Source of the DNA: Candidatus Geothermincola secundus
GTDB lineage: Bacteria; Actinomycetota; Geothermincolia; Geothermincolales; Geothermincolaceae
DNA length: 50,882 nt
Direction: 5' to 3'
NCBI GenBank assembly: GCA_015711755.1
Contig: JACVIY010000001.1
Span: 1-50,882, forward strand
In this document: positions 1 through 36,644 of the stretch, one piece after another
Numbering within the stretch: position 1 is the first letter of the stretch
How the letters are laid out: each line of letters opens with the position of its first letter
Position numbers and translations under genes: made by a program
The notes under the pieces: generated by a model
Databases searched by the model: none
What the model was told of the DNA's origin: nothing
What the model saw: the letters and a program-made list of their open reading frames with translations, nothing else

Positions 1-436
1 CTTCAACCTGAACGAGCTGGTCACGGACTGGAACGTCTCCACCAAGGTGGTCTCGGAGGGAGGGGACGTCATCTGCGAGCGGGCCATGTACGGGAACGGC
101 GACGCCTGGGCCCACGACTCCATCGGGGTAACCGATCCCTCCTCCGTCTGGTACCTCGCCGAGGGCTGCACCGAGGGCGGCATGAGGACATGGGTGCTGG
201 TGCAGAACCCCAACGACGACCCGGTCAGGGTGGACCTCACCTTCATGACCACCGGGGGCAAGGTGGACGGGCCTCAGGACTTCGAGATAGCCGGCAATTC
301 CCGCTACTCCTTCAACCTGAACGAGCTGGTCACGGACTGGAACGTCTCCACCAAGGTGGTCTCGGAGGGAGGGGACGTCATCTGCGAGCGGGCCATGTAC
401 GGGAACGGCGACGCCTGGGCCCACGACTCCATCGGG
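1..436 (+). repeat. Exact 127-nt direct repeat (1-127 = 310-436) with a 309-nt period, equal to one 103-codon protein module.
   Basis: Base-by-base comparison shows identity from 1/310 through 127/436. The first mismatch is at 128 (g) versus 437 (c). Identity may extend upstream of the window. Confidence 0.95.
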
Positions 437-448
437 CGCAAGCCTTGA
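2..448 (+). CDS. 3' end of a secreted repeat-module protein (5'-truncated by the window edge). It holds one partial and one complete copy of the ~103-aa AEG...QNP...ER.MY...H module.
   Basis: The reading frame is open from the window edge (same frame as listed ORF 47..448) to TGA at 446-448. The translation ...FNLNELVTDWNVSTKVVSEGGDVICERAMYGNGDAWAHDSIG / VTDPSSVWYLAEGCTEGGMRTWVLVQNPNDDPVRVDLTF... is a diverged version of the module seen in the three large secreted proteins at 12072, 26411 and 32697. Confidence 0.7.
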   Translation, partial: FNLNELVTDWNVSTKVVSEGGDVICERAMYGNGDAWAHDSIGVTDPSSVWYLAEGCTEGGMRTWVLVQNPNDDPVRVDLTFMTTGGKVDGPQDFEIAGNSRYSFNLNELVTDWNVSTKVVSEGGDVICERAMYGNGDAWAHDSIGRKP

Positions 449-3403: not shown

Positions 3404-3491
3404 GAGGGAAGGCGAAGGCCGCATCGGCCCGTCGTGAACCGAGGCCTTCACGGAAGGCGGAACCCCGGGGCCGCCCGCTCGGAGCGGAAGA

Positions 3492-3953
3492 TCACCTCTC
3501 TTCCAGGGTCAGTCGCAGCGCTTCACCGGCGTCTTCAGCGTAGATGATGCGGTCGTCGAAGCGGCCCTCCCGCTGGATGCGCCAGCTGTTCAGGGCCACC
3601 ACCCGCTTGCCCATTTTCAGGGCCATGGCCATCTCGGTCAGGGTGCCGTATTCCCCTCCCACCGCGATGACCGAATCGGCCGTGCGCACGATGATGGCGT
3701 TGCGCGCCTGCCCCATGTCTGTGGCTATGGTCACGTCCACGTAGGGGTTGGCGTCCCCGCGGAAGGGGCCCGGCAGTATTCCGATGGTCAGCCCGCCGGC
3801 CTCCCTGGCGCCGCGGCAGGCCGCCTCCATCACGCCTCCCAGCCCCCCGCAGATAAGATAGGCGCCCGCTTCCGCCAGCCCCCGGCCCACCTCATAGGCC
3901 ATCCTCTCCTCTTCCTCGCTGGCCTGCTGGCCGCCGATGACCGCCACGTACAT
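3492..3953 (-). CDS. TIGR00725-like / SLOG (LOG-DprA-like Rossmann) family protein.
   Basis: This is a 153-aa ORF. MYVAVIGG...AYEVGRGLAEAGAYLICGGLGGVMEAACRGAREAGGLTIGILPG...VIAVGGEYGTLTEMAMA is the characteristic GGxGGVMEA / GGxGTLxE pattern of this family. Confidence 0.75.
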   Translation of the reverse strand: MYVAVIGGQQASEEEERMAYEVGRGLAEAGAYLICGGLGGVMEAACRGAREAGGLTIGILPGPFRGDANPYVDVTIATDMGQARNAIIVRTADSVIAVGGEYGTLTEMAMALKMGKRVVALNSWRIQREGRFDDRIIYAEDAGEALRLTLEER

Positions 3954-3984
3954 CCTCAGCCCTCCTCGGTCTCAAGACGCCTGA

Positions 3985-5166: not shown

Positions 5167-5930
5167 CCCTCTTCCCCTTCCCCCAGTCGGTTGATCAGGG
5201 CGGCCAGGAACCCGGCCCCGAAGCCGTTGTCAATGTTTACCACGGCCACCCCGGGGGCGCAGGAGTTGAGCATGGCCAGCAGCGCCGCCAGGCCTCCGAA
5301 GGATGCCCCGTAACCGGTGGAGGTGGGAACGGCGATGACCGGGCAGGAGGCCACCCCCGCCACCAGGCTGGCCAGAGCCCCCTCCATGCCCGCCACCACC
5401 ACCGCGGCCCGCGCTCCCTCCAGCGCTTCCCGGTGGGCGAAAAGGCGGTGCACTCCCGCCACCCCCACGTCGTAGAGGGGGGCCACCTTCGCTCCCATGA
5501 GCTCCGCGGTGACGCGGGCCTCCTCGGCAACGCCGTGGTCGGCGCTGCCTCCGCTGGCCACCACCACCAGCCCGATCCCCTCGCCTTCGGGCATCTCACC
5601 CACCACCATCAGGCGGGCCTGAGGATGGTAGCGGGATCCGGGGAACTCCGCCCGCAGCCTCTCCGCCATCTCCTCTCTCACCCTGGTCAGCAGAACGAAC
5701 CCGCTTCCCTCGCGCAGCAGCGAGCGCACGATAGGAGGGACGTGTTCGGGCAGCTTCCCCTCGCACAGCACCACTTCCGGCAAGCCGTGGCGCAGGCGGC
5801 GGTGATGGTCGGGCTTGGCGAAACCGAGGTCCTCGAAGGGGAAGCGGGCCAGCTCCCTCAAAGCTTCATCCACTCCCGCTTCACCCCGCGAGACCCGCTC
5901 CAGCACCTCCCTGACCCTGTCCTTATACAA
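5163..5930 (-). CDS. larB: Nickel pincer cofactor biosynthesis protein LarB (AIR-carboxylase-like).
   Basis: This is a 255-aa ORF. It shows ...FEDLGFAKPDHHRRLRHGLPEVVLCEGK... and a PurE-like GLVVVASGGSADHGVAEEA...VVVAGMEGALASLVAG. The TTG start overlaps the larE 3' end by 8 nt. Confidence 0.85.
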   Translation of the reverse strand: MYKDRVREVLERVSRGEAGVDEALRELARFPFEDLGFAKPDHHRRLRHGLPEVVLCEGKLPEHVPPIVRSLLREGSGFVLLTRVREEMAERLRAEFPGSRYHPQARLMVVGEMPEGEGIGLVVVASGGSADHGVAEEARVTAELMGAKVAPLYDVGVAGVHRLFAHREALEGARAAVVVAGMEGALASLVAGVASCPVIAVPTSTGYGASFGGLAALLAMLNSCAPGVAVVNIDNGFGAGFLAALINRLGEGEEG

Positions 5931-6762
5931 GCCCGCCCTCCACCCGCTCGGCCCTCTTCTCCAAACGCCTCTTCCCCATCGCCGCAGCTTTCCCGCGGCA
6001 GGGCGAGAACCCCAGTTCCAGCAGGGGAAGGCGAAGAAGCTCCCGCAGCTCTTCGCGCAAGCTCTCCCGGCCTCTGACGCCCAGCGCCTCCAGGCCGGCG
6101 CGGCTCGTCTCCAACAACAGTTCGCCCCGCCCCTTCCAGCGCAACCTGATATCGAGAAGGCCTTTTTCCCGCAGCAGGTCCTCGGCCTCGTCCACGAACC
6201 GCAACTCCTCCGGTGAAAGCCGGTGTCCCCCGGGAAACCGCGTGGCCAGGCAGCTGTTGGACGGGCGGATGAAATCTCGCAGGCCCAGGCGGCGAAGGGA
6301 TTCCTCCACCTCTTCCCGCCCCATGCCCGACTCTCTCAGAGGGCTGCGCGCTCCCAACTCCTTGACCGCCCGCATGCCGGGACGGCCGCTCTCGTCGTCG
6401 TCGGCGCGCGAGCCCTCCAGGATCCAGGCGAAGCCCTCTTGGTCGGCCAGGCCTCGCATCGCCTGCAGGCGCACGCGCTTGCAGTGATAACAGCGCGAGG
6501 CCAGGTTGTTCAGCACATCGGGGTGGCCCATCTCTCCCGCCTCCACCAGGCGGTGGGGGAACCCCAGCGCCGCGGCGATCTCTCGGGCCATAAGCAGGTC
6601 GCTGCGCGGAAGAAGGGGCGAGACCGCCGTGACCGCCAGTATGGGGACGCCCGCCTCGCGCGCCGCCGCCGCAAGGAGCGCGGAGTCGGTCCCTCCCGAG
6701 AAAGCCAACAGCCCGCCCCCGCAGCGGTCGAGGATCTCCAGCAGCAGCTCGTATCCTCCCAT
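5923..6762 (-). CDS. larE: ATP-dependent sacrificial sulfur transferase LarE (PP-loop ATPase).
   Basis: The PP-loop LAFSGGTDSALLA and the SNSCLATRF motif (the conserved LarE cysteine context) are present. I place the start at ATG 6762 (MGGYELLLEIL...), giving 279 aa. The listed 327-aa ORF adds a Pro/Gly-rich N-terminal extension with no support. Confidence 0.8.
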   Translation of the reverse strand: MGGYELLLEILDRCGGGLLAFSGGTDSALLAAAAREAGVPILAVTAVSPLLPRSDLLMAREIAAALGFPHRLVEAGEMGHPDVLNNLASRCYHCKRVRLQAMRGLADQEGFAWILEGSRADDDESGRPGMRAVKELGARSPLRESGMGREEVEESLRRLGLRDFIRPSNSCLATRFPGGHRLSPEELRFVDEAEDLLREKGLLDIRLRWKGRGELLLETSRAGLEALGVRGRESLREELRELLRLPLLELGFSPCRGKAAAMGKRRLEKRAERVEGGLV

Positions 6763-6774
6763 GGGTCGATTATA
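6762..6774 (-). promoter_or_regulatory. Candidate -10 box (TATAAT) placed for a leaderless larE transcript.
   Basis: The minus strand reads TGGGGGTATAAT-CGACCC-ATG. The TATAAT (6774-6769) ends 6 nt before the ATG at 6762, so a start site about 7 nt downstream coincides with the A of the start codon. No RBS lies in between. Confidence 0.45.
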
Positions 6775-6971
6775 CCCCCAAGCCGCGCCTTCCCGGTTTT
6801 TCCGCGCCTCAGCCCCGAAGCCCGATGAAGCCGAGCCAGGGAGCGGTTGTATCGGTATTCCCGTGAATAAAAGAGCATCGCGAGGCCCAGGGCCCGGCTG
6901 AGACAACGGGAGGGGGAGACGTTGGGTTTATAATCGGTTGGAGGGAAGGGAGGTTCGGGCGGGCCGGCCCG

Positions 6972-10353: not shown

Positions 10354-10815
10354 ATGGAGCGGACCATAGAGGGAGTCAGGATAAAGGGCCTCATCCGCCA
10401 CTGCGACGAGAGGGGCTTCTTCCTGGAGATTCTGCGCGATGATGACGGCTTGCTGAGCCGCTTCGGGCAGACCTCTTACACGCTCTCCTACCCGGGGGTC
10501 ATCAAGGCATTTCACTGGCACAGGCATCAGGATGACCTTTGGTTCGTGGCTCACGGCGACGCTTTGGTGGTGCTCTACGACCGCAGGGAGGGTTCCCCCA
10601 CGCGGGGCGCTTTGCTGGAGCTGGTGATGGGCGAGCAGAACCCCTCGCTCCTTCTTATCCCCGCGGGCGTTGCCCACGGCTACAAGGTCTTGGGAGAGCG
10701 ACCACTCGGCCTTTTCTACCATACCACCCGTTCCTACGACCGCGATGAACCCGATGAGATGCGCATACCCTATGATGACCCCGATATAGGATACGACTGG
10801 GCGAAACGGAGCTGA
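10354..10815 (+). CDS. dTDP-4-dehydrorhamnose 3,5-epimerase-like cupin (RmlC family).
   Basis: This is a 153-aa ORF. It shows DERGFFLEILR...IKAFHWHRHQDDLWFVAHGDALVVLYD...LLIPAGVAHGYKVLG. The RBS GGAGGATGAGAGG lies upstream. Confidence 0.75.
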   Translation: MERTIEGVRIKGLIRHCDERGFFLEILRDDDGLLSRFGQTSYTLSYPGVIKAFHWHRHQDDLWFVAHGDALVVLYDRREGSPTRGALLELVMGEQNPSLLLIPAGVAHGYKVLGERPLGLFYHTTRSYDRDEPDEMRIPYDDPDIGYDWAKRS

Positions 10816-10985: not shown

Positions 10986-11249
10986 CTACTTCTTCGCGGC
11001 GGGCTTCTTGGCCGCAGGCTTCGCGGCGGGCTTCGCGGCGGGCTTCTTGGCCGCAGGCTTCGCGGCGGGCTTCGCGGCGGGCTTCTTGGCCGCGGGCTTC
11101 TTCGCGGCGGGCTTCTTGGCCGCAGGCTTCGCGGCGGGCTTCTTGGCCGCGGGCTTCTTCGCGGCGGGCTTCTTCGCCGCCGGCTTCGTTGCGGCGGGCT
11201 TCTTGGCCGCCGGCTTCTTCGCCGCGGGCTTTTTCGCTGTAGCCATCAC
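10986..11249 (-). CDS. Histone H1-like / HU-tail-like lysine-alanine-proline repeat protein made entirely of AAKKP/AAKP repeats.
   Basis: This is an 87-aa ORF: M(M)ATAKKPAAKKPAAKKPAATKPAAKK...PAAKK. The RBS AAGGAGAGG lies 4-7 nt upstream of GTG-ATG at 11249/11246. An AT-rich island at 11358-11398 lies further upstream. The DNA is a 12/15-nt tandem repeat array with a 39-nt higher-order unit. Confidence 0.75.
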   Translation of the reverse strand: MMATAKKPAAKKPAAKKPAATKPAAKKPAAKKPAAKKPAAKPAAKKPAAKKPAAKKPAAKPAAKPAAKKPAAKPAAKPAAKKPAAKK

Positions 11250-12071: not shown

Positions 12072-14708
12072 ATGAAGAAAACCTTGGAAGTGAGCGCGAG
12101 GTCATGGTCGGCGTTCTTTCTTTGCGCGCTGACGGCGCTGGCCGCCCTGGCGGCCGCTCCCCGCCACAAGGCCAAAGCGGCTGTCGACACCGGGCCCGTC
12201 CTGCTGGTCTCCAGGAACGCGAGCGGCGCGGAAGGCAATGCTCTTTCGCTATACCCCAGCATCAGCGGAGGCGGCAGGTACGTGGCCTTCGAGTCCGAGG
12301 CGGACAACCTTATCCCGGGCGCCAGCGGCCTTCATATCTACCGTAAGGACGTCGCCTCGGGCGAGATATCGCTCTGCTCCGCGTCCGGCGAGGGGGTGGA
12401 AGGCAACAGTAGCAGCTATTTGCCCAGCATCAGCGCGGACGGCACCTACGTGGCTTTCCAATCGTACTCGAGCAACCTCATTCCCGGCCATCCCACCACC
12501 CATCTGCAGGTGTTCCGCAAGGACCTGGTGACGGGAGAGGTGATGCTCTGCTCCGCCAGGTCGGACGGGGTGCAGGGCAACAGCAACAGCTTTAACCCTT
12601 CCATCAGCGCCGACGGGCGCTACGTGGCCTTCTCCTCCATCTCCGACAACCTCATACCTTCAGCGGCGATCTCCGGGCAGCAAATCTACCGCAAGGATCT
12701 GGCCACGGGCGAGATCGTGCTGGTCTCCTCTTCGCTACAGGGGACCAAAGGGGACGGGGTTTCATCCTTCCCGTCCATCAATTCGGACGGCAGATACATC
12801 GCGTTCGAATCAGAGGCGGACAACCTGGTCCCCGGCGTCTCCAGCGCTTTCTCCCAAGTCTACCGCAAGGATGTGGTTTCCGGGAAGATCATGCTGGCCT
12901 CCTCCTCATCGGCGGGATCGCAGGGAAACGGTGAAAGCGCCCATCCCGACATATCCGCCGACGGCCGCTTCGTGGCTTTCAAATCTGAATCGGGGAACCT
13001 TACGCCCGGCGTTTCCGTCGGGCGGCAGCACGCTTACCGGAAGGACTTGCAGAGTGGGGCGGTCAACCTGTGTTCCTCCACGGTTGCGGGGGCGCAGGGC
13101 AACGATCATAGCTGCATCAATGACGGCCCCTCCATCTCCGCTGACGGTGCGTATGTCTCATTCGAGACAAAGGCCACCAACCTGAGCTCTTTCATAGTGA
13201 GCGGGAAAAATGCCATCGTACGCAAACACGTCATCGACGGCGAAGTCAGTTGCTGCTCAGTCTCCGCGTCGGGGCAGGCGGCGAACGGCAGCAGTTTTTC
13301 TTGCGACATCAGCTCCGACGGCAGGTTCGTCGCCTTCGACTCCAGGGCCACCAACCTCATCGACGGAGAGACCACCTCCGACCAACAGATCTTCCGAAAA
13401 GAACTGCCCCACGAGACCTCTTTCTACTTCGCGGAGGGCTACACCGGCGCCGGTTTCCAGGAGTACCTGTGCCTGGGCAACCCGGGAGGCGCGGATATAG
13501 ACGTATCCTATTCCTACATCTTCCCGGACGGCCCCGTGCAATACGGCACCCTGAGGGTGCCGGCCGGTTCCCGCGTCACCGTGGACGTGAACTCCACGGT
13601 GGGGGCGGGGCGCGAGGTCTCCATCGCCGTTTCCTCCGCTGACCCCTTCTCGGCCGAGCGCCCCATGTACTTCGACTACGGATCGGGGTGGACGGGCGGC
13701 CACGACGCGCTGGGTGCCCCCCGAACCAACACTTCCTTCTACTTCGCGGAGGGCTACACCGGCCCCGGCTTCGAGCAGTGGGTCTGCGTGCTCAATCCCG
13801 GCGGCGCCGATGCCTCCCTGGATTTCCGCTTCCAGACCCAGGAGGAAGGCGAGGTCCTCAAGACCGGCTACACGGTGCCGGCCAATTCCCGCCGCACCTT
13901 CAAGGTCAACGAGGTGCTGGGCGCGGGTTACCAGAACTCTCTGCAGCTGTCTTCCGACCAGCCCATCGTGGCGGAACGCCCCATCTACTTCGAATACGGT
14001 GGCACCGCCGGATATGACTGGACCGGCGGCCACTGCGTGATGGGCACCGACTATCTCAAGCGCGAGTACTACTTCGCCGAGGGCTATACCGGGCCCGGCT
14101 TCGAGGAGTGGCTGACCCTGCAGAACCCCAACCCCCTGGCCGTCCTGGTCACCGCCGTCTATCAGTTCGGCGACGGAGCCACCCCCCTGAAGATCGACTA
14201 CAGCATCCCCGCGGGCACCCGCAAGACCGTGTTCGTCCCCGACGAAGTGGGGTTGAACCGGGACGTGTCGGTCAAGCTCATCTGCGACTCCCCCTTCCTG
14301 GCGGAGCGGCCCATGTATTTCCGCTACTCGGGAACGGGCGGGTATGGCTGGACCGGCGGCCACTGCGTCATCGGCGCCTCCTTCCGCCGCAAAGACCTCT
14401 TCTTCGCGGAAGGGTACACGGGGCCGGGCTTCGAGGAGTGGCTGTGCATCCAGAACCCCGGCGCCGCCACCGCGCACCTGCGCATAACCTACTACACCCA
14501 AGAGGAGGGAAAGCTGGAGGAGCGCTACGTGGACGTCGCCTCCGCCTCGCGCATGACCCTGAACGTCAACGCCCACGCTGGGCCGGGATACCAGCTCTCC
14601 AGCCGCGTGGAGGTCACCTCGGGTTCGTGGATAATCGTGGAACGGCCGATGTATTTCAACTACAACGGATGGACCGGCGGCCACGACGTGGTGGGCTACG
14701 GCCTCTGA
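12072..14708 (+). CDS. Secreted protein: signal peptide, seven PD40-like beta-propeller blades, and a 4x AEGYTGPGF-module cassette.
   Basis: The start ATG 12072 (MKKTLEVSARSWSAFFLCALTALAALAAAPRHKA) is preceded by GGGAGGAGG. There are seven repeats of GN..S..PSIS.DGR[YF]VAF.S.A.NL.P......YRKD...GE. Four modules then each begin [FY]FAEGYTG.GF. Confidence 0.85.
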   Translation: MKKTLEVSARSWSAFFLCALTALAALAAAPRHKAKAAVDTGPVLLVSRNASGAEGNALSLYPSISGGGRYVAFESEADNLIPGASGLHIYRKDVASGEISLCSASGEGVEGNSSSYLPSISADGTYVAFQSYSSNLIPGHPTTHLQVFRKDLVTGEVMLCSARSDGVQGNSNSFNPSISADGRYVAFSSISDNLIPSAAISGQQIYRKDLATGEIVLVSSSLQGTKGDGVSSFPSINSDGRYIAFESEADNLVPGVSSAFSQVYRKDVVSGKIMLASSSSAGSQGNGESAHPDISADGRFVAFKSESGNLTPGVSVGRQHAYRKDLQSGAVNLCSSTVAGAQGNDHSCINDGPSISADGAYVSFETKATNLSSFIVSGKNAIVRKHVIDGEVSCCSVSASGQAANGSSFSCDISSDGRFVAFDSRATNLIDGETTSDQQIFRKELPHETSFYFAEGYTGAGFQEYLCLGNPGGADIDVSYSYIFPDGPVQYGTLRVPAGSRVTVDVNSTVGAGREVSIAVSSADPFSAERPMYFDYGSGWTGGHDALGAPRTNTSFYFAEGYTGPGFEQWVCVLNPGGADASLDFRFQTQEEGEVLKTGYTVPANSRRTFKVNEVLGAGYQNSLQLSSDQPIVAERPIYFEYGGTAGYDWTGGHCVMGTDYLKREYYFAEGYTGPGFEEWLTLQNPNPLAVLVTAVYQFGDGATPLKIDYSIPAGTRKTVFVPDEVGLNRDVSVKLICDSPFLAERPMYFRYSGTGGYGWTGGHCVIGASFRRKDLFFAEGYTGPGFEEWLCIQNPGAATAHLRITYYTQEEGKLEERYVDVASASRMTLNVNAHAGPGYQLSSRVEVTSGSWIIVERPMYFNYNGWTGGHDVVGYGL
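12198..13415 (+). other. Seven tandem PD40 (TolB-like WD40-like) propeller blades within the CDS.
   Basis: The seven blade cores are PSISGGGRYVAFESEADNLIPG, PSISADGTYVAFQSYSSNLIPG, PSISADGRYVAFSSISDNLIPS, PSINSDGRYIAFESEADNLVPG, PDISADGRFVAFKSESGNLTPG, PSISADGAYVSFETKATNLSS and CDISSDGRFVAFDSRATNLIDG. The period is about 47-52 aa. Confidence 0.75.
13416..14705 (+). repeat. Four-copy cassette of the ~105-aa AEGYTGPGF module, with units starting near 13416, 13731, 14064 and 14394.
   Basis: The units begin TSFYFAEGYTGAGFQEYLCLGNPGG, TSFYFAEGYTGPGFEQWVCVLNPGG, EYYFAEGYTGPGFEEWLTLQNPNP and DLFFAEGYTGPGFEEWLCIQNPGA. Each ends ...AERPMYF.Y....GGH...G. Confidence 0.9.
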
Positions 14709-23680: not shown

Positions 23681-23682
23681 GT

Positions 23683-26410: not shown

Positions 26411-28966
26411 ATGAGAAGGGTAGGGAAGAGCGCCGGGCCCGTCATCCTCGCCTTTTCATCCCTCCTCATCATCCATCTTGCCCTCTTTCCCCTCCGGCCC
26501 GCGGCGGCAGCGGGGGAGGGCGGGCCCTCCTGGCACTCATTCGTGTTTTCCCTGGTGCATGAGGACCACGCTCTCCTCCAGAGGGTGGAGGGGGCCGTCA
26601 GGTCGCTGTTGCCGGCAGGCGCCTCCTGGGGCGGGGCGGAGCGGCTCTTCGACAGAGTCTTCCGGCTGCGGCTCCCGACCCCCCTCCCCGTCTCCGCCGT
26701 CCTCGCGCTGCTGCGGGGGTCCCCGGCGGTGGAATACGCCGAGGCGGACGAGCTCAGGAGTGCCCTGGAGATCCCCGACGATCCCTACTACGGGCAGCAG
26801 TGGCACTTCGCTTCCATAAGGGCGGAGGAGGGCTGGGAGGTCACCCGCGGATCCTCCTCGCTGACCATAGCGGTGATCGATACCGGGGTGGATTTGGCCC
26901 ATCCCGATCTGGCGGGCAGGCTGCTCCAAGGGTATGACTTCGTGGCGGCCGATGAGTATCCTTGGGACGAGAACGGCCACGGCACCCATGTGGCCGGATT
27001 GGCCGCGGCGGCCACCGACAACGGCGTGGGAGTGGCCGGGGTGGACTGGAACGCCCGGGTATTGCCGCTGCGGGTGCTGGACGCCTCGGGAAGCGGGTAC
27101 GATTCGGACATCGCCTCCGCCATCCGATACGCCGCCGACAACGGCGCTGACGTCATCAACCTGAGCCTGGGCTCTTCAACCCCCTCGTACACGCTGCAGA
27201 ACGCGGTCAGCTACGCCTACGGCAAGGGGGTGGTCATCGTGGCCGCGGCAGGCAACGACGGCTCGGGCAGCGTCTCCTATCCCGCCGCCTACAGCGGGGT
27301 CATCGCGGTGGGGGCGTTGGACAGCGGCGACCGCAAGGCCGACTTCTCCAATTACGGCAGCAAGCTGGACCTGATGGCGCCGGGCGTGGGGGTCTATTCC
27401 ACCTATGCGGGAGGGCGCTATCAGAGCATGAGCGGCACCTCCATGGCCTCGCCGCTGGTGGCCGGGGCGGCCTGCCTGGTGCTGGCGGCGTTTCCCTCGC
27501 TCGAGGGGAGGCCGGACGATGTGGCGGGGAAGCTGACCTCCTCCGCTCGCGACCTGGGCGCCGCCGGGTTCGACGAATATTACGGCTACGGGAAGCTGGA
27601 CCTGGCCTCAGCTCTGAAGGGAGGCGGACCTGAGCCCCCACCACCTCCTCCACCCCCTCCTCCGCCGGGAGACGAGCTCGATTCCATAAGCGGGGGCAGG
27701 ACCGCCTGGTACCTGGCGGAGGGGTATACCGGCCCCGGGTTCCAGACATGGCTGCTGCTGCAGAACCCCAACACCAGGGAGGCGCGGGTGACCGTGCAGG
27801 CGGCCACCTCGCGGGGGGAGAACGATGCGGCGGCCGTCACCATGCCCCCCCAGTCCCGCTGCACCATGAACCTCAACGCGCGCTGGCCGGACCGCGAACT
27901 CTCCGCTTACGTGGGCGTGAGCAACGGCGTGGGGATACTGGTGGAGAGGTCCATGTACTTCAACGACGGGGTGCGCGAAGGGGGGCACCGCGTGGCGGCC
28001 TCGCCCGAGGCCTCCACCTCCTGGTATTTCGCCGAGGGCTTCACCGGCCCCTCCTTCGACGAGTGGATACTGGTGTTCAACCCCCAGACCGCGGCGCAGA
28101 ACTGCCTGCTGCGCGTGCTCACCGGCACCGGCGCCATCCTCGAGTTCGAGTACCACCTCCCGGCGCGGTCCCGCGTCACCGTCCACATGAACGAACTGGT
28201 GCCGGGCCAGGAGTCCTCCATCCACCTCATCAGCGACCTTCCGGTGGTCGCGGAGCGCTCGATGTATTTCGACTACGGCGGGTCCGGAGACGGTCACGCC
28301 AGCATGGGGTGCCGGACGCTCTCATCGGACTGGTACTTCGCCGAGGGATATACCGGCCCCGGTTTCGACGAGTGGATACTGGTCCTTAACCCCTACTATT
28401 ACTACACGGTGAGCGCCCGCTTCGAGTTCTATTTCCCCGACGGCACCCGTACCTCCCGCACTTACGAACTACCGCCGGTCTCGCGCAACACCTTCAAGGT
28501 CAACGACATCGTCGGCTCGCGCGAGGTCTCGGTGCGCCTGACCACGCCGGCTGATTTCCCCGTGCTGGCGGAGAGGGCCATGTACTTCAAATACGCGGGC
28601 CGCTGGGGGGGCGGGCACGGCGCCCTCGGCGTTCCGGAGGCCGCCACGACCTGGGGGCTGCCCGAGGGCTACAAGGGACCGGGGTTCGACACCTGGGTCA
28701 TGGTGATGAACCTCGGGGACGCCGTTTCCTCCACCGCCTTCTACCTGCTCTACCCGGACGGGACCCACGATTACCTCGCTTTCAACATCGCCCCCCATTC
28801 CCGCTTCACCCTGCTGGCCGACGAGGTGGCCCGGCAGGACGAGTTCTCGGTGGTGGTGAGCTCGGCCAACGGCCAGCCGCTGGTGGTGGAGAGCTCGCTC
28901 TATTTCGGGACCGGCTCTTTTGACGGCGGCTCCTGCGAGTCGGCCCTTTCCCTTTTTCACGATTGA
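26411..28966 (+). CDS. Secreted subtilisin-like S8 serine peptidase with an 11-proline linker and a 4x AEGYTGPGF-module cassette.
   Basis: ATG 26411 (MRRVGKSAGPVILAFSSLLIIHLALFP) follows GGGAGGG. The catalytic triad contexts are AVIDTGVD, HGTHVAG and SGTSMASP, plus NLSLG. The linker PEPPPPPPPPPPPG has 11 consecutive Pro codons at 27635-27667. Four modules follow. Confidence 0.9.
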   Translation: MRRVGKSAGPVILAFSSLLIIHLALFPLRPAAAAGEGGPSWHSFVFSLVHEDHALLQRVEGAVRSLLPAGASWGGAERLFDRVFRLRLPTPLPVSAVLALLRGSPAVEYAEADELRSALEIPDDPYYGQQWHFASIRAEEGWEVTRGSSSLTIAVIDTGVDLAHPDLAGRLLQGYDFVAADEYPWDENGHGTHVAGLAAAATDNGVGVAGVDWNARVLPLRVLDASGSGYDSDIASAIRYAADNGADVINLSLGSSTPSYTLQNAVSYAYGKGVVIVAAAGNDGSGSVSYPAAYSGVIAVGALDSGDRKADFSNYGSKLDLMAPGVGVYSTYAGGRYQSMSGTSMASPLVAGAACLVLAAFPSLEGRPDDVAGKLTSSARDLGAAGFDEYYGYGKLDLASALKGGGPEPPPPPPPPPPPGDELDSISGGRTAWYLAEGYTGPGFQTWLLLQNPNTREARVTVQAATSRGENDAAAVTMPPQSRCTMNLNARWPDRELSAYVGVSNGVGILVERSMYFNDGVREGGHRVAASPEASTSWYFAEGFTGPSFDEWILVFNPQTAAQNCLLRVLTGTGAILEFEYHLPARSRVTVHMNELVPGQESSIHLISDLPVVAERSMYFDYGGSGDGHASMGCRTLSSDWYFAEGYTGPGFDEWILVLNPYYYYTVSARFEFYFPDGTRTSRTYELPPVSRNTFKVNDIVGSREVSVRLTTPADFPVLAERAMYFKYAGRWGGGHGALGVPEAATTWGLPEGYKGPGFDTWVMVMNLGDAVSSTAFYLLYPDGTHDYLAFNIAPHSRFTLLADEVARQDEFSVVVSSANGQPLVVESSLYFGTGSFDGGSCESALSLFHD
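27701..28963 (+). repeat. Four-copy cassette of the AEGYTGPGF module (diverged), with units starting near 27701, 28016, 28325 and 28646.
   Basis: The units begin TAWYLAEGYTGPGFQTWLLLQNPN, TSWYFAEGFTGPSFDEWILVFNPQ, SDWYFAEGYTGPGFDEWILVLNPY and TTWGLPEGYKGPGFDTWVMVMNLG. Each has ...SR.T...N... and [AV]ERSMYF / ERAMYF / ESSLYF. Confidence 0.85.
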
Positions 28967-32696: not shown

Positions 32697-35600
32697 GTGA
32701 GGGTCCGGGTTCTCTGCGAACGGCTTATGACGGCCCTTTTCATGATGATGCCGTTGGTGATCCTTCCGCTGCCGGCCGGAGCCGCAACGGCTCATATGCG
32801 GGTCTGGGTGGTCTCCGACGGCGACAAGGTCCTGCGGGACGAGGTTCCCAGGGATTCTTCGGCCGTGTGGTCGCGGCAGGCCGGCAGGGTGGCCCTGCAT
32901 GCGGCCAGAGGCGAGAGCGTGGCCTTTCAGGTGATGGTCACGGCGGAGGGAGCGGACCTGCACGGGGTCAATGCGGTCCTGCAGGGACTGGCGGGACCGG
33001 GCGGCGGCTTGCCCGCTTCTTGCATAGAGATGTTCCGAGAGCATTACCTGCACGTCACCGAGCCCTCCACGGCCATGTACGGGGAGCAGTCCACCAGCGG
33101 ACCGGGATGGTATCCGGATCCACTGGTACCCGCGGGCGCTCCCGATGGGGGCCTCCCCTGCGACATATCCGCGGGACTCAACCAGGGGGTCTGGGTGGAC
33201 ATACGCGTGCCCGATGAAGCCCCGCCCGGCATCTACGCCGGCGATCTCAGGGTGATCGCCGCCGGGGAGGCGGAGGTGGTCATCCCCGTGTCGCTGGAGG
33301 TATGGGATTTCTCACTGCCCGACGAGACCCACCTCCCCAGCTTTTTCATCTATCAGCCGGATCAGCTCGCGGATGCGCACGGTGTGGCCAAATATTCGGA
33401 CGAATATCTGAGCATCGAGGCGGAATACGCCCGTATGGCCCGGTCCCATCGCATGAACTTTTCCACTTCCGTATATCCGGAGGTGCAGGGTTCGGGCAGC
33501 GGGACCACCATCATCTGGGACTCCTGGCACGACGGGTTCGCCTCCCGCCACCTGGACGGCACCGTTTTCCCCGACGGCAGGGGCAGCGCTCTCTACGCCC
33601 TGCCCATAGGACTGGACTTCCCCGACCCATCACAGCACGGGGGTCTCGGCAGCCCGGAGTTCGAGGCCACCTTCACCGCCATGCTCACCCAGTTCGGCGA
33701 CCACTTCAGGGAGAGGGGCTGGTTCGACCGCTCGTTCCTATATATCGTTGACGAGCCCAACAGCGCCGAGGAATACGATCTGGTGCGCTATTACGGGGAC
33801 CTCATCGACCGCAGCGGAGCGGGGTTCCCCTTCATGGTGACCGAGGGTCCGACGCCGCAGGACCCGTCCTGGGGGAGCCTCGCCGGCTACGTGGACATAT
33901 GGTGCTGCGGGGGAAGCGCCTGGCCCGGTCCCATGCAGGCGCGGCAGGCTCTGGGGGAGGGGGCCTGGACCTACAACGGAGGCGAGCCCTACGCCGGCAG
34001 CCAGATCATCGACACCCCGGGAGTGGCCATGCGTTCCTGGGGGTGGATAGCGCGTCGCTACGGGGTGGAATGCTGGCTCCTCTGGGACGTCTGTTATTTC
34101 CATGACCTCTACAACGGATGTGACTGGAACGACGTCTGGACCGATCCCCTGACCTTCGACCAGCGGCGCGGCGGGGGTTCCTGGCCTGACTGGGGAAACG
34201 GGGACGGTACCCTTTTCTACCCGGGCGCGCCGCGGGGCATCGGCGGGCCCGTTTCCTCCCTGCGCATGAAGAACTGGCGCAGGGGTGCGCAGGACTACGA
34301 ATACATGTGGCTGCTGGACCGGCGGGGGAAGGGCGACCTGGTGCGGGAGCTGTTGGATCAGGTGGTGCCCTATGCCTTCGGGGATGCGGAGGGCAGGCAG
34401 ACGGGATGGAGCGATGACCCCGCCGCGTGGGAGGCGGCGCGACTGGCCATGGGGGAAGAGCTGGACGGGCACCCCGCCTATCCGTTCAGGTTTTACTTCG
34501 CTGAAGGGTACACCGGGGCCGGTTTCCGGGAGTACCTGTGTCTGGGCAATCCGGGGCCCGACCCGGCCTCGGTCCTCATCGAGTATTTCTTCTCGGGCGG
34601 GGAGAGAGACTTCCAGACCCTGACCGTACCCCCGGGATCCCGGGCCACCGTGGACGTCAACTCCCGGGTGGGGCCGGGCCGCGAGGTCTCCGCGGTCGTC
34701 TACGCCGACCGGACGCTGGGAGCGGAGCGGCCGTCGTATTTCGCCTACGGACCGGGGTGGACCGGAGGGCACGACGTGGTGGGAGTTCACTCTCCCTCAG
34801 AGGAATGGTACTTCGCCGAGGGCTATACCGGGCCCGGCTTCGACCAATGGGTCTGCGTGCTGAATCCCGGGGGTGAAGACGCCGCGCTCACCTTCCGCTT
34901 CCAGACGGAGGAGGAGGGGGAGGTTATCAGGGAGGGATACCGGGTGGAGGCGGGATCCCGCGCCACCTTCATGGTCAACGAGGTGCTGGGGGAGGGCTAC
35001 CAGGCCTCCCTTCATCTGCAGTCGGATGAGCCGGTGGTGGCGGAGCGCCCCATGTACTTCTATTATGCGGGCACCGGGGGTTACGGCTGGGACGGCGGGC
35101 ACTGCGTAGCCGGGGCGGTTGGCCTGGCCCGCGAGTACTTCTTCGCCGAGGGCACCACCCGGGGCGGGTTCGAGGAATGGCTTACGCTGCAGAACCCGGG
35201 GGACTCCGGGATCGTGATCCGCGCGCAGTACCAGCTGGGGCCGGGACAGGGGGACCCCGTGCAGCGCGATTATACCGTGGGGGCGGGAAGGCGACTGACG
35301 GTGAGGGTGGAGGATGAGGTTGGGGCGGAGAATGACGTCTCGGTGCGCCTGAGCGCGGACGCGGATTTCCTGGCGGAGCGCCCCATGTATTTCCGATACC
35401 AGGGCTACGGGGCGGACTGGGACGGCGGGCACTGCGTCATCGGCGCGACCTCCCTCGCCTCCGACGCCTTCTTCGCCGAGGGCTACACCGGTGGGGGGTT
35501 CCATACCTGGCTGTGCCTGCAGAATCCAGGGGACGAAACGGCTGACGCGGAGGTGGTCTTCCTGACCCAGGAGGCGGGCGCGCTCTCGCCGGCGCTTATT

Positions 35601-36644
35601 TCCGTCCCGGCCCGCAGCAGGTTCACGGCAAGGGTGAACGATCTGGCGGGGACGGGTTATCAGCTGTCCATCCTGGTCCGGGTCACCTCGGGACCACCGC
35701 TGGCGGCCGAGCGCCCCGTTTACTTCGACCTCGACGGGCTGAACGGCGGCCACGACGCGGTGGGAAGATCCCTGATCCCCGAGACCCTGGCGACGGTGGA
35801 TGACTTCGCCTATCAGCTGCAGGAAGTGGACCTCACCGTTTTGGGAGACTCCGCCTTCGACCTCGTGGTGATGGATTATTCCTCCGACGGGAGCGAGGAG
35901 GGACGATGGTCGGCGGGGCAGGTCGCTTCGCTGAAGCACAGTCCCGGCGGAGACAAAACGCTGCTTTCATATATGAGCATAGGGGAGGCTGAGGACTATC
36001 GCTGGTACTGGCGGGACGAATGGGACGCCGACCGCGACGGGTCGCCGGACCCCGGCGCGCCGCCATGGCTGGGGCCGGGCAACCCGGAATGGCCGGGGAA
36101 CTACAAGGTGCGCTACTGGGATCCCGCATGGCAGGAGATCCTCAAAAGCTACCTGGACAGGATAATCGAAGCTGGCTTCGACGGGGTCTATCTGGACATA
36201 ATCGACGCCTATGAGTACTGGGGGCCGGGCGGGGAGAGCGGCCTGGAACGCGCTACGGCGGAGGAGGAGATGGTGGAGCTGGTAAGGTCGATAGCCCGGT
36301 ACTGCAGGGTGGAGAGGGGGCGCGCCGGATTCCTGGTCTTCCCCCAGAACGGTGAGGGGCTGGCGTCGCACCCCGATTACGTCGATGTCGTCTCGGGCAT
36401 AGGCAAGGAGGACCTCTGGTACATGGACGATGCCCCCCAGCCCGCCGACTACACCGAGAGGGCCCTGGCCTACCTGGACGTCTTCCTGCGGGCGGGGCGC
36501 AAGGTGCTGGTGACCGACTACGTGACCGCGCCGGCCCTCATCGATGATCTCTACGCCAGGGCCGAGGCGCGGGGCTATGTCCCCTACGCCACCGTGCGCG
36601 ACCTTGACTTCCTCACCGTCAACCCCGGCCACGAACCCGACTGA
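32697..36644 (+). CDS. Secreted multidomain glycoside-hydrolase-like protein: a DUF4091-like N-terminal domain, the 4x AEGYTGPGF cassette, and a GH114 / TM1410-family domain.
   Basis: This is a 1315-aa ORF. The signal-like N-terminus is MTALFMMMPLVILPLPAGAATA. The N-domain segment ...VIPVSLEVWDFSLPDETHLPSF... is DUF4091-like. The cassette spans 34485-35770. The C-terminal segment is ...LLSYMSIGEAEDYRWYWRDEW...NYKVRYWDPAWQEIL...IIEAGFDGVYLDIIDAYEYW, the pattern of endo-alpha-1,4-polygalactosaminidase/TM1410-type hydrolases. The start could be GTG 32697 or ATG 32727. Confidence 0.8.
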   Translation: MRVRVLCERLMTALFMMMPLVILPLPAGAATAHMRVWVVSDGDKVLRDEVPRDSSAVWSRQAGRVALHAARGESVAFQVMVTAEGADLHGVNAVLQGLAGPGGGLPASCIEMFREHYLHVTEPSTAMYGEQSTSGPGWYPDPLVPAGAPDGGLPCDISAGLNQGVWVDIRVPDEAPPGIYAGDLRVIAAGEAEVVIPVSLEVWDFSLPDETHLPSFFIYQPDQLADAHGVAKYSDEYLSIEAEYARMARSHRMNFSTSVYPEVQGSGSGTTIIWDSWHDGFASRHLDGTVFPDGRGSALYALPIGLDFPDPSQHGGLGSPEFEATFTAMLTQFGDHFRERGWFDRSFLYIVDEPNSAEEYDLVRYYGDLIDRSGAGFPFMVTEGPTPQDPSWGSLAGYVDIWCCGGSAWPGPMQARQALGEGAWTYNGGEPYAGSQIIDTPGVAMRSWGWIARRYGVECWLLWDVCYFHDLYNGCDWNDVWTDPLTFDQRRGGGSWPDWGNGDGTLFYPGAPRGIGGPVSSLRMKNWRRGAQDYEYMWLLDRRGKGDLVRELLDQVVPYAFGDAEGRQTGWSDDPAAWEAARLAMGEELDGHPAYPFRFYFAEGYTGAGFREYLCLGNPGPDPASVLIEYFFSGGERDFQTLTVPPGSRATVDVNSRVGPGREVSAVVYADRTLGAERPSYFAYGPGWTGGHDVVGVHSPSEEWYFAEGYTGPGFDQWVCVLNPGGEDAALTFRFQTEEEGEVIREGYRVEAGSRATFMVNEVLGEGYQASLHLQSDEPVVAERPMYFYYAGTGGYGWDGGHCVAGAVGLAREYFFAEGTTRGGFEEWLTLQNPGDSGIVIRAQYQLGPGQGDPVQRDYTVGAGRRLTVRVEDEVGAENDVSVRLSADADFLAERPMYFRYQGYGADWDGGHCVIGATSLASDAFFAEGYTGGGFHTWLCLQNPGDETADAEVVFLTQEAGALSPALISVPARSRFTARVNDLAGTGYQLSILVRVTSGPPLAAERPVYFDLDGLNGGHDAVGRSLIPETLATVDDFAYQLQEVDLTVLGDSAFDLVVMDYSSDGSEEGRWSAGQVASLKHSPGGDKTLLSYMSIGEAEDYRWYWRDEWDADRDGSPDPGAPPWLGPGNPEWPGNYKVRYWDPAWQEILKSYLDRIIEAGFDGVYLDIIDAYEYWGPGGESGLERATAEEEMVELVRSIARYCRVERGRAGFLVFPQNGEGLASHPDYVDVVSGIGKEDLWYMDDAPQPADYTERALAYLDVFLRAGRKVLVTDYVTAPALIDDLYARAEARGYVPYATVRDLDFLTVNPGHEPD
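34485..35770 (+). repeat. Four-copy cassette of the AEGYTGPGF module, internal to the protein, with units starting near 34485, 34797, 35130 and 35460.
   Basis: The units begin FRFYFAEGYTGAGFREYLCLGNPGP, EEWYFAEGYTGPGFDQWVCVLNPGG, REYFFAEGTTRGGFEEWLTLQNPGD and DAFFAEGYTGGGFHTWLCLQNPGD. The unit order is collinear with the cassette at 13416-14705. Confidence 0.9.

What the first reader, a model, noticed from the sequence alone, without database searches (positions are those of the whole stretch)
13416..14705. An unassigned ~105-aa extracellular module occurs as a 4-copy cassette and recurs on four secreted proteins in this window
**What the sequence shows.** The translation contains four tandem units of the same ~105-aa module. 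Each unit opens with [FWY][YF][FL]-A-E-G-Y-T-G-P/A-G-F-x-x-[WY]-[LV]-x-[LIV]-x-N-P. Each has a mid-unit P-A/x-x-S-R-x-T-x-x-V-N and closes with A-E-R-P-M-Y-F-x-Y ... G-G-H-x-x-x-G.

**Where else it occurs.** The same module appears 4x at 27701-28963, 4x at 34485-35770 and at least 2x at 2-448. That is at least 14 copies in 50 kb.

**Interpretation (inference).**
- All carriers have Sec-type N-termini.
- None shows LPXTG, SLH, LysM or choline-binding motifs.
- A constant 4-copy cassette on unrelated catalytic or propeller heads is how cell-wall or S-layer anchoring modules and stalk modules behave.
- The invariant Glu, Asn and His suggest a metal- or glycan-binding site.

I cannot place the module in a named family from memory. 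It may correspond to an existing DUF, but its role appears undescribed.
Basis: partly seen in the sequence, partly recalled or inferred. Interest (0 to 1): 0.8.

Follow-up and report, generated by a model that had tools for sequence, protein, structure and literature searches.

The report
ASRAH (DUF5719) four-domain cassette on secreted proteins
The repeated ~105-residue module is real, but it already has a name: it is the ASRAH/DUF5719 beta-sandwich domain (the fold of the Anabaena sensory rhodopsin transducer), used here as a fixed four-domain block on many secreted proteins of an uncultured actinobacterium, and it probably holds them to a cell-surface sugar polymer, which nobody has tested.

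Summary
Observation confirmed. The window holds 13 full units and one partial unit of a ~105-aa module: 4+4+4 on three complete carriers, and 1 plus a fragment on a gene cut by the contig end.

The "unassigned" claim is refuted:
- Every carrier passes Pfam DUF5719.
- A profile of the 13 units finds ASRT (2II7) and TM1070 (1NC7) in the PDB.
- An AlphaFold2 model of the cassette (pLDDT 95.7, pTM 0.93) matches only those two folds with Foldseek probability 1.0.

This is the ASRAH domain of De Souza, Iyer and Aravind (2009). They described secreted tetrads fused to amidases and predicted sugar or peptidoglycan binding.

What goes beyond that paper:
- The tetrad is a fixed hetero-tetrad. Units 1-4 keep position-specific signatures in 94% of 342 units.
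- It is predicted to fold as one rigid body.
- It sits mostly at the extreme C-terminus of carriers whose other regions hit at least 39 Pfam families.
- It occurs in many copies per genome in uncultured Actinomycetota (Solincola/Geothermincola-like MAGs).

Best reading: a non-covalent glycan-binding retention module, analogous to SLH or CWB2 triplets. That function is inferred, not shown. I rate it a new member of a known kind, of moderate interest.

The parts
12072..14708 (+). Carrier A gene: signal peptide, PD40/TolB-like beta-propeller, then an ASRAH tetrad at the extreme C-terminus
   Evidence: The ORF is listed. The preferred start is ATG 12072, preceded by GGGAGGAGG, with leader MKKTLEVSARSWSAFFLCALTALAALAAAPRHKAKA. 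Pfam PD40 E=2.3e-11 and DUF5719 E=1.7e-13.
13422..14705 (+). Cassette A: four ASRAH units (13422-13736, 13737-14066, 14067-14396, 14397-14705)
   Evidence: Per-unit HMM scores are 136-150 bits. AF2 pLDDT 95.7, pTM 0.93. Foldseek hits 1nc7 and 2ii7/2ii8 with probability 1.0.
26411..28966 (+). Carrier B gene: signal peptide, S8 subtilase (about 26858-27592), poly-Pro linker, then an ASRAH tetrad at the C-terminus
   Evidence: Start ATG 26411 preceded by GGGAGGG, leader MRRVGKSAGPVILAFSSLLIIHLALFPLRPAAAA. Peptidase_S8 E=6.4e-63 and DUF5719 E=6.1e-7.
27707..28963 (+). Cassette B: four ASRAH units (27707-28021, 28022-28330, 28331-28651, 28652-28963); unit 4 is degenerate
   Evidence: HMM scores are 105-131 bits. 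Unit 4 lacks the A-E-G, N-P, E-R-P and G-G-H motifs. AF2 pLDDT 91.3, pTM 0.89, with the last 16 residues below pLDDT 50.
32697..36644 (+). Carrier C gene: signal peptide, GH123-like region (about 32880-34313), internal ASRAH tetrad, then a GH114/TM1410-family domain (about 35784-36623)
   Evidence: GH123_cat E=1.1e-21, Glyco_hydro_114 E=4.6e-21 and DUF5719 E=9.6e-17. TIGR01370 E=2.6e-76. GTG start with leader MRVRVLCERLMTALFMMMPLVILPLPAGA.
34491..35771 (+). Cassette C: four ASRAH units (34491-34805, 34806-35135, 35136-35465, 35466-35771)
   Evidence: HMM scores are 125-144 bits. Collinear with cassette A at 61% identity. Unit-by-unit identity to A is 59, 72, 59 and 53%.
2..448 (+). 3' end of carrier D: a fragment of one unit (2-136), a full divergent unit (149-445) and the stop codon
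   Evidence: HMM scores are 34 and 114 bits. DUF5719 E=3.7e-6. Bases 1-127 are an exact copy of 310-436, so the array length is unresolved.

Best explanation
What it is (shown). Each ~105-aa unit is an ASRAH domain, the eight-stranded beta-sandwich of the ASRT/TM1070 superfamily, which Pfam captures as the repeated core of DUF5719. Four units (u1-u4), non-equivalent and conserved by position, form one ~430-aa block. That block has been moved as a whole between genes.

How it most likely works (inferred). The four sandwiches pack into a single rigid pseudo-tetramer, the covalent counterpart of the TM1070/ASRT homotetramer. Its inter-domain clefts bind a carbohydrate of the cell envelope, either peptidoglycan or a secondary wall or exopolysaccharide polymer. 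The block would then retain otherwise unrelated Sec-exported enzymes, propellers and adhesin-like arrays non-covalently at the surface of these uncultured Actinomycetota. This is the job that SLH or CWB2 triplets do in Firmicutes.
For: Identity of the module:
- DUF5719 scores above the gathering threshold in all four carriers. ASRT (PF07100) scores 24.8 bits against a cut-off of 25.
- The unit profile hits 2ii7 (E=1.1e-3) and 1nc7 (E=2.4e-3), aligning the N-terminal aromatic residue and the invariant Asn.
- Foldseek on the AF2 model gives probability 1.0 only for 1nc7 (target TM 0.79, rmsd 2.0 A) and for 2ii7/2ii8.
- The domain and its secreted tetrads are described in PMC2739507.

Fixed tetrad:
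- 83 of 93 carrier ORFs in 80 related loci have exactly four units.
- 134 of the top 150 representatives have 4 matched stretches and 7 have 8.
- A unit's nearest neighbour in another protein sits at the same position in 323 of 342 cases.

Rigid body:
- pTM 0.93 and 0.89, with linkers of about 5 residues.

Exported, promiscuous and expanded:
- Sec-type leaders on A, B and C.
- Non-cassette regions hit 39 Pfam families, including S8, PD40, TIG, GH17, beta-helix, beta-lactamase, PGA_cap and Amidase_3.
- SpoIID and CHAP heads appear among the homologues.
- The cassette usually ends within 5 residues of the C-terminus.
- There are four carriers in this 51-kb contig and up to 10 loci in one MAG among the best 80 of at least 559 loci.

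Pocket strand:
- A Cys at the position of TM1070 C29, which contacts a ligand in that crystal structure (PMC2739507), is kept in u1, u2 and u4 family-wide.
- The cassette is 15% aromatic.
Against: - No binding experiment exists for any extracellular ASRAH protein in the literature I could search.
- Sugar binding is itself only an inference, even for the founding members. The reported biochemical activity of ASRT is DNA binding and looping (PMC8660804).
- I could not inspect model coordinates. The conserved E/R/E-R/H residues could therefore be inter-domain contacts rather than a ligand site, and the resemblance of the cassette to the TM1070 tetramer is untested.
- The cassettes are acidic (net -18 to -30). 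That is unlike the basic wall-binding modules that recognise anionic polymers.
- Stand-alone tetrads (P0045), N-terminal or internal cassettes (carrier C; about 10 loci) and double tetrads are not what a simple C-terminal anchor would predict.
- Only one IMG/VR locus carries the cassette, so phage endolysins give no independent support.
Confidence: 0.5

Rival explanations
1. Substrate-targeting carbohydrate-binding module. The tetrad binds an environmental polysaccharide and brings the attached enzyme to its substrate, as CBMs do on glycoside hydrolases.
For: Many carriers are glycosidases: GH17, GH39/10/5/42-like TIM barrels, and the GH123 plus GH114 domains of carrier C. The superfamily is predicted to bind sugars (PMC2739507).
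Against: The same u1-u4 cassette sits on subtilases, PD40 and BNR propellers, TIG arrays, ice-binding-like and beta-helix proteins, beta-lactamase-like proteins, a purple acid phosphatase and DUF362. These share no polysaccharide substrate. Position-specific signatures are conserved whatever the head.
Confidence: 0.15
2. A ligand-free structural or self-assembly platform. The pseudo-tetramer is a rigid protein-protein scaffold, for example a lattice or S-layer-like building block or an oligomerisation base, that displays heads without binding a glycan.
For: The predicted body is compact (pTM 0.93). ASRT and TM1070 are protein homotetramers. Secreted stand-alone tetrads and double tetrads exist. 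The highly conserved charged residues could be interface residues.
Against: Fusion to N-acetylmuramoyl-L-alanine amidase, SpoIID and CHAP is typical of wall-targeting modules. A pocket-strand Cys equivalent to the TM1070 ligand contact is retained. Nothing shown here argues for higher-order assembly.
Confidence: 0.2
3. Extended stalk or spacer that holds catalytic heads away from the cell.
For: Tandem beta-sandwich repeats often act as stalks, and the repeat number is constant.
Against: AF2 places all four domains confidently relative to each other (pTM 0.93 and 0.89), and linkers are about 5 residues. The cassette is usually the C-terminal end of the protein with nothing beyond it to attach. 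The u1-u4 units are non-equivalent.
Confidence: 0.05
4. C-terminal secretion or sorting signal recognised by a dedicated export or attachment machinery, in the manner of T9SS CTDs or sortase and exosortase signals.
For: The cassette lies at the extreme C-terminus in most carriers, and there are many carriers per genome.
Against: At 430 aa and four folded domains it is far larger than known sorting tags. Carriers already have Sec leaders. The cassette is N-terminal or internal in carrier C and in about 10 related loci. No conserved neighbouring machinery is seen in this window.
Confidence: 0.05

Closest known systems
ASRAH family 2: secreted tetrads fused to N-acetylmuramoyl-L-alanine amidase in Chloroflexi (De Souza, Iyer and Aravind 2009, PMC2739507)
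   Same: Same domain and same four-copy organisation. Both are secreted and lack a transmembrane anchor. Both are predicted to form a hetero-tetrameric sugar or peptidoglycan-binding body. Amidase_3-plus-tetrad proteins are among the homologues found here (P0067, P0091, L017).
   Different: The 2009 family was described as always fused to an amidase and mainly found in Roseiflexus, Chloroflexus and Herpetosiphon. Here the tetrad sits on a PD40 propeller, an S8 protease and a GH123/GH114 enzyme. In relatives the non-cassette regions hit at least 39 Pfam families, in uncultured Actinomycetota, with many paralogues per genome.
Pfam DUF5719 (PF18986). By inference this is the actinobacterial lipoprotein with two ASRAH domains (ASRAH family 3).
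   Same: All four carriers score above the gathering threshold. NCBI already names close homologues "DUF5719 family protein".
   Different: Matches cover only profile positions of about 50-240 of 319, the repeated core. The N- and C-terminal extensions are not matched. There are four units rather than two. No lipobox is present, and no WhiB, glycosyltransferase or inactive-zincin neighbourhood is seen in this window.
ASRT / TM1070 (PF07100; PDB 2II7, 1NC7): solo cytoplasmic ASRAH proteins
   Same: Same fold (target TM 0.79, rmsd about 2 A). The strand-1 aromatic residue, the strand-2 Asn turn and a Cys at the C29 position are conserved.
   Different: Those proteins are single-domain, cytoplasmic homotetramers. 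They are linked to sugar-metabolism operons or to a rhodopsin, and ASRT is reported to bind and loop DNA (PMC8660804). The window's units are extracellular and covalently joined as four distinct paralogous domains. They carry family-specific motifs of their own: A-E-G, S-R-x-T, A-E-R-P-M-Y-F and G-G-H.
SLH triplets and CWB2 triplets of Firmicutes (functional analogues only; this comparison rests on my own knowledge of those families)
   Same: A fixed small number of tandem repeats forms one pseudo-symmetric body. It is placed at one end of many unrelated exoproteins, with many paralogues per genome, and there is no covalent anchor.
   Different: The folds are unrelated (SLH is helical, CWB2 is alpha/beta). 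Those are three repeats rather than four. Their ligands are known (pyruvylated SCWP for SLH, PSII for CWB2), whereas no ligand is known here.

Membership tests
ASRAH / ASRT superfamily | Eight-stranded beta-sandwich with the TM1070/ASRT topology | tested here: met
   In the Foldseek search of the AF2 model against the PDB, the only probability-1.0 hits are 1nc7 (target TM 0.79, rmsd 2.0 A, 112 columns) and 2ii7/2ii8/2ii9/2iia (target TM 0.65-0.81). DSSP shows all-beta units.
ASRAH / ASRT superfamily | Significant sequence-profile relationship to ASRT/TM1070 | tested here: met
   The profile of 13 units against PDB sequences gives 2ii7 E=1.1e-3 and 1nc7 E=2.4e-3 as the top hits. Pfam ASRT scores 24.8 and 23.6 bits, just under the cut-off of 25. 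Precomputed PF07100 hits are listed for most homologues.
ASRAH / ASRT superfamily | Conserved aromatic residue (Trp) at the start of strand 1 after a polar residue, and a near-invariant Asn ending strand 2 (PMC2739507) | tested here: met
   Units start with [ST]-[FWY]-Y-F-A-E-G. N20 is invariant in all 13 units and aligns to N32 of TM1070 (chain residue 54).
ASRAH / ASRT superfamily | Binds a small molecule or sugar in a cleft lined by strand 2 at a dimer interface | not testable with these tools
The only observation is that a Cys at the TM1070 C29 position is retained in u1, u2 and u4.
ASRAH family 2 (amidase-associated tetrads) | Four tandem ASRAH domains in a secreted protein | tested here: met
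   Carriers A, B and C each have 4 units and a Sec-type leader.
ASRAH family 2 (amidase-associated tetrads) | Always fused to an N-acetylmuramoyl-L-alanine amidase domain | tested here: not met
   None of the window's carriers hits Amidase_3. Their heads are PD40, Peptidase_S8 and GH123 plus GH114. Amidase fusions exist only among homologues from elsewhere.
Pfam DUF5719 (PF18986) | Whole-protein score at or above the gathering threshold (26.2 bits) | tested here: met
   Scores are 50.8, 29.3, 61.5 and 26.7 bits for carriers A, B, C and D.
Pfam DUF5719 (PF18986) | Full-length match to the 319-position profile, that is, two core domains plus family-specific N- and C-terminal extensions | tested here: not met
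   The best stretches cover profile positions 50-128, 57-240, 50-200 and 49-132 only.
Pfam DUF5719 / ASRAH family 3 | Lipobox Cys after the signal peptide, and a WhiB, glycosyltransferase and inactive-zincin gene neighbourhood (PMC2739507) | tested here: not met
   The leaders end in AKA|A, AAA|A and AGA|A without a lipobox. Neighbours are UppS, an aldolase, an ECF sigma factor, PHA synthase, an acyl-CoA ligase and an AAA ATPase.
SLH / CWB2 / LysM / choline-binding / LPXTG anchors | Sequence match to the respective Pfam models, or a C-terminal sortase signal | tested here: not met
   No such Pfam hit at E <= 1. There is no LPXTG followed by a hydrophobic tail, and carriers A and B end inside the last unit.

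The most novel reading that the evidence does not exclude
The ASRAH tetrad is the main, lineage-wide, non-covalent surface-display system of a deep-branching group of uncultured Actinomycetota (Geothermincolia, Solincola, Anoxymicrobiaceae and some Acidimicrobiales MAGs). It would be a pseudo-tetrameric lectin that recognises a still unidentified envelope polymer, and so a further class of multi-repeat wall anchor alongside SLH, CWB2 and choline-binding repeats. Two weak leads, the acidic cassette and its fusion to GH114/GH123 enzymes, suggest the polymer could be a cationic, GalN/GalNAc-rich one.
Probability: 0.35. Interest if true: 0.6.

Novelty: new member of a known kind. Interest (0 to 1): 0.33.

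Why it matters
If the tetrad is a wall or polymer anchor, it defines the surface proteome of a whole group of uncultured, deep-branching Actinomycetota. One HMM would then list their displayed enzymes, which number dozens per genome. It would also give an experimentally tractable ~45-kDa probe for an unknown envelope polymer in organisms that cannot be grown.

It would be the first functional test of the extracellular branch of the ASRT superfamily. That branch's sugar-binding role has stood as a prediction since 2009.

As it stands, the finding is a correct observation of a domain that already has a name. The new element is how widely it is deployed and that it forms a fixed hetero-tetrad, not a new kind of module.

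Tried and rejected
- NCBIfam has no model for the cassette. Only the heads were hit.
- Papers containing DUF5719, PF18986, DUF1362 or PF07100: none beyond De Souza 2009. "ASRAH" appears in biology only in that paper.
- Phage support for a wall-binding role: a scan of IMG/VR found a single locus (L081). It is a signal peptide, tetrad, poly-Pro linker and two unknown domains, and is not an endolysin. This gives no independent support.
- Exact look-up of a window protein (the thiolase) to identify the sample: not on record. Cluster-member look-up of distant homologues gave no organism names.
- Whole-cassette Foldseek hits such as alpha-2-macroglobulin, CD109, fibronectin and contactin have query TM <= 0.13 and rmsd > 20 A. 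I rejected them as generic matches to tandem beta-sandwiches.
- Weak PDB sequence hits to streptococcal cell-envelope proteinases (E 0.05-0.16) and to Pfam PLipase_C_C are below significance and were not used.
- Rfam and tRNA scans of the window were empty.
- I could not compare the predicted four-domain arrangement with the 1NC7 homotetramer, or map conserved residues in 3D, because model coordinates are not exposed.
- I considered testing whether tetrads cluster by head type or by genome. I dropped the idea because orthology confounds it.
Full report

Yes. Translating the four ORFs and aligning the units shows a ~105-aa module with these motifs:
- It opens with [FWY]-[YF]-[FL]-A-E-G-Y-T-G-x-G-F-x-x-W-[LVI]-x-[LVI]-x-N-P.
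- Mid-unit it has S-R-x-T-x-x-V-N.
- It closes with A-E-R-P-M-Y-F-x-Y ... G-G-H.

An HMM of the units, searched over all six frames of the window, finds exactly 4 units at 13422-14705, 4 at 27707-28963 and 4 at 34491-35771. It also finds one full unit at 149-445 and a 45-aa fragment at 2-136, and nothing else.

The similarity is far beyond chance:
- The two most divergent pairs still give pairwise BLASTP E = 3e-12 and 1e-9.
- Cassettes A and C are collinear at 61% identity over 426 residues.
- Their unit-by-unit identities are 59, 72, 59 and 53%, against 40-50% between positions. The four-unit block was therefore duplicated as a block.

One caveat concerns the first carrier. Window bases 1-127 are an exact copy of 310-436, and the last 127 bases of the window exactly repeat a stretch 153 nt upstream. 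The window is a whole 50,882-nt contig (longest contig of the window's own protein). The two 127-nt terminal repeats look like assembler loops. The fragment at 2-136 and the number of units in that gene are therefore unresolved.

**2. What the module is**

It is not unassigned. Three lines of evidence agree.

- Pfam. All four carriers pass the gathering threshold of DUF5719 (PF18986; 50.8, 29.3, 61.5 and 26.7 bits against 26.2). Two of them score 24.8 and 23.6 bits against ASRT (PF07100; cut-off 25).
- Sequence profile. A profile of the 13 units searched against all PDB sequences gives as its two best hits the Anabaena sensory rhodopsin transducer (2II7, E=1.1e-3) and Thermotoga TM1070 (1NC7, E=2.4e-3). 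The alignment puts the unit's opening aromatic residue on TM1070 W7 and the invariant Asn on N32.
- Fold. An AlphaFold2 model of cassette A, built on 30 sequences, has mean pLDDT 95.7 and pTM 0.93. In a Foldseek search of the PDB, the only hits with probability 1.0 are 1NC7 (target TM 0.79, rmsd 2.0 A) and the ASRT entries (target TM 0.65-0.81). The higher-ranked long hits have query TM <= 0.13 and rmsd > 20 A and are generic tandem-sandwich noise.

This is the "ASRAH" domain defined by De Souza, Iyer and Aravind in 2009 (PMC2739507). They split the superfamily into three families:
- solo cytoplasmic ASRT-like proteins;
- secreted actinobacterial lipoproteins with dyads flanked by family-specific extensions.

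They noted that TM1070 is a homotetramer whose ligand cleft is partly formed at a dimer interface. From this they proposed that dyads and tetrads form pseudo-tetrameric bodies. They inferred sugar binding, and for the amidase fusions binding to "elements of peptidoglycan".

In the window's carriers, DUF5719 matches only profile positions of about 50-240 of 319. That fits DUF5719 being the dyad family, with the window's units hitting only its repeated core. This link is my inference.

**3. Anatomy and distribution**

The carriers in the window. All three complete carriers have a start codon with a Shine-Dalgarno-like site, followed by a Sec-type leader. None has a lipobox, and none has a sortase signal.

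| Carrier | Start | Head and layout |
|---|---|---|
| A | 12072 | PD40/TolB-like propeller, then tetrad at the C-terminus |
| B | 26411 | S8 subtilase, poly-Pro linker, then tetrad at the C-terminus |
| C | 32697 | GH123-like region, tetrad, then GH114/TM1410-family domain |

Homologues elsewhere:
- A search with cassette A returned more than 1,600 homologues at E <= 1e-5 among the 8,000 candidates scored. Several are already named "DUF5719 family protein" by NCBI.
- An exhaustive profile search of 1.84 billion cluster representatives gave 8,440 hits at E <= 1e-3 and 3,547 at E <= 1e-30.
- In species-representative genomes, at least 559 loci encode a relative. The best 80 come from 32 genomes, nearly all labelled as uncultured Actinomycetota (a few only as "uncultured bacterium"): Candidatus Solincola, Candidatus Geothermincola, Anoxymicrobiaceae and some Acidimicrobiales MAGs. 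Up to 10 loci come from one MAG.
- The window's own inositol-phosphate synthase is closest (69-84% identity) to proteins from the same kind of MAGs.
- The window carries four carriers in 51 kb.

Copy number per protein:
- In the 80 loci, 83 of 93 carrier ORFs have exactly four units. The exceptions are mostly cut by locus ends.
- Among the top 150 representatives, 134 have 4 matched stretches and 7 have 8.
- Both samples are biased against proteins with fewer than 4 units, but not against proteins with more.

Position in the protein and partner domains:
- The cassette usually ends within 5 residues of the C-terminus.
- About 10 loci have it directly after the leader, followed by a 200-310-aa GH17, PGA_cap or Amidase_3 domain.
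- The non-cassette parts hit 39 Pfam families. These include TIG, PD40, BNR/Ycf48-like, subtilase, ice-binding-like, beta-helix/NosD, InlB-B-repeat-like, DUF362, beta-lactamase, DUF11, FG-GAP and purple acid phosphatase, plus several GH clan-A families.
- SpoIID, CHAP and M28 peptidase heads appear.

Position-specific units:
- The nearest neighbour of a unit in any other protein occupies the same position (u1, u2, u3 or u4) in 323 of 342 cases.
- Mean identity is 52.5% for the same position and 40.7% for different positions.
- Unit 3, for example, carries A-E-G-T-T-R and a Thr where u1, u2 and u4 carry a Cys.

Cassette B:
- It is a divergent version whose fourth unit has lost most motifs.
- It is still predicted as a compact four-domain body (pLDDT 91.3, pTM 0.89). 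Only its last 16 residues are disordered.

**4. How it most likely works**

Shown: the fold, the fixed hetero-tetrad, the confident mutual placement of the four domains, export, and promiscuous fusion.

Inferred: the block is a pseudo-tetrameric carbohydrate-binding body that keeps exoproteins on a polymer of the cell's own envelope.

Arguments for:
- The same cassette sits on heads that share no substrate.
- It is fused to peptidoglycan-active enzymes: Amidase_3, SpoIID, CHAP and beta-lactamase-like proteins.
- There are many paralogues per genome.
- The carriers have no other anchor.
- The cassette has high aromatic content (15%).
- A Cys is retained at the position of TM1070 C29, one of the two residues that contact the ligand in that crystal (PMC2739507).

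Arguments against, or gaps:
- There are no binding data for any extracellular ASRAH protein.
- The founding member's reported activity is DNA looping (PMC8660804).
- The cassettes are acidic (net -18 to -30).
- Stand-alone and double tetrads exist.
- Phages give no support.
- I could not see coordinates, so the conserved E/R/E-R/H residues may be interface rather than ligand residues.

Rivals:
- A substrate-targeting CBM. The non-glycosidase heads weaken this.
- A ligand-free scaffold or lattice unit. This is not excluded.
- An extended stalk. The pTM values and 5-residue linkers argue against it.
- A sorting signal. The cassette is too large, and it is sometimes N-terminal or internal.

**5. 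Comparison and novelty**

The closest described entity is ASRAH family 2. It has the same domain, the same tetrad and the same secreted location, but its defining "always fused to an amidase" feature is not met here. Pfam DUF5719 is met by score but not by full-length architecture, lipobox or gene neighbourhood. SLH and CWB2 triplets are functional analogues only, and that comparison rests on my own knowledge of those families.

The module, its superfamily, its tetrad organisation and a predicted sugar-binding role are therefore all in the literature and databases. This analysis adds four things:
- the positional hetero-tetrad conservation;
- the AF2 support for a rigid four-domain body;
- the breadth of partner domains;
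- the expansion in one group of uncultured Actinomycetota.

I rate it a new member of a known kind, of moderate interest (0.33). The most novel reading still open is that this is the general surface-display anchor of these lineages, binding an unidentified envelope polymer. I give that a probability of about 0.35.

**6. Context of the window**

Neighbouring genes are ordinary metabolism and regulation. No conserved partner of the carriers is visible.
- LarA/B/C/E
- inositol-phosphate synthase
- UppS
- an ECF sigma and anti-sigma pair
- class III PHA synthase
- beta-oxidation enzymes
- a 2-oxoacid:ferredoxin oxidoreductase
- a GT2 glycosyltransferase

No tRNA or Rfam family was found.

Noticed in passing
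window 1-127 vs 310-436; window 50756-50882 vs 50603-50729: Both ends of the window carry an exact 127-nt repeat of nearby sequence (offsets 309 and 153). The window is a whole 50,882-nt contig. This looks like de Bruijn-graph (k=127) end loops, so the first partial ASRAH unit and the 153-nt "tandem repeat" at the 3' end may be assembly artefacts or collapsed arrays.
   Followed up: partly
window 10986-11249 (-), tandem repeat 10989-11237: An 87-aa ORF made almost entirely of P-A-A-K-K repeats (MMATAKKPAAKKPAAKK...). It is encoded by a 15/30-nt tandem repeat of about 17 copies. It resembles the Lys/Ala/Pro-rich tails of actinobacterial histone-like proteins, but here it has no attached globular domain.
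   Followed up: no
window 32697-36644: Carrier C puts two catalytic regions on either side of the tetrad: a GH123-like region, and a GH114/TM1410-family domain (TIGR01370, E=2.6e-76). From my own knowledge, characterised members of both families act on GalNAc or GalN-containing glycans. This hints at a galactosamine-rich polymer in this organism's surroundings or envelope.
   Followed up: partly
window 28652-28963: The fourth unit of cassette B has lost the A-E-G, N-P, E-R-P and G-G-H motifs, and its last 16 residues are predicted disordered. The cassette is nevertheless still modelled as a compact four-domain body (pTM 0.89).
   Followed up: yes
window 2084-6906: A complete-looking lactate-racemase-type nickel-pincer cofactor set: LarA (2084-3403, +), LarC (3985-5166, -), a LarB-like AIR carboxylase (5163-5930, -) and a LarE-like ATP-pyrophosphatase (5923-6906, -).
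   Followed up: no
window 22481-24855 (-): A class III PHA synthase pair: PhaC-like alpha/beta hydrolase and PhaE (PHA_synth_III_E, E=1.5e-42). This is unusual-looking for Actinomycetota, but I did not examine it.
   Followed up: no
P0121-P0127, P0129, P0205; P0001: Some relatives carry 8 or 9 units (double tetrads). P0001 is a run of at least 6 nearly identical units of the "A-E-G-T-T-R" type. This array form is different from the fixed u1-u4 tetrad.
   Followed up: no
L081 5860-7890 (IMG/VR UViG_3300027896_000010, 193 kb): This is the only viral-collection hit. It is a protein whose composition looks low-GC: leader, ASRAH tetrad, poly-Pro linker and two ~100-aa repeats of unknown family. It suggests the tetrad also occurs outside high-GC Actinomycetota. 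Whether the contig is truly viral was not checked.
   Followed up: partly
window 10354-10815 (+): A 153-aa ORF with cupin-like motifs reminiscent of dTDP-4-dehydrorhamnose 3,5-epimerase (RmlC). It overlaps a longer, hit-less ORF on the opposite strand. It lies upstream of carrier A and was not scanned against Pfam.
   Followed up: no
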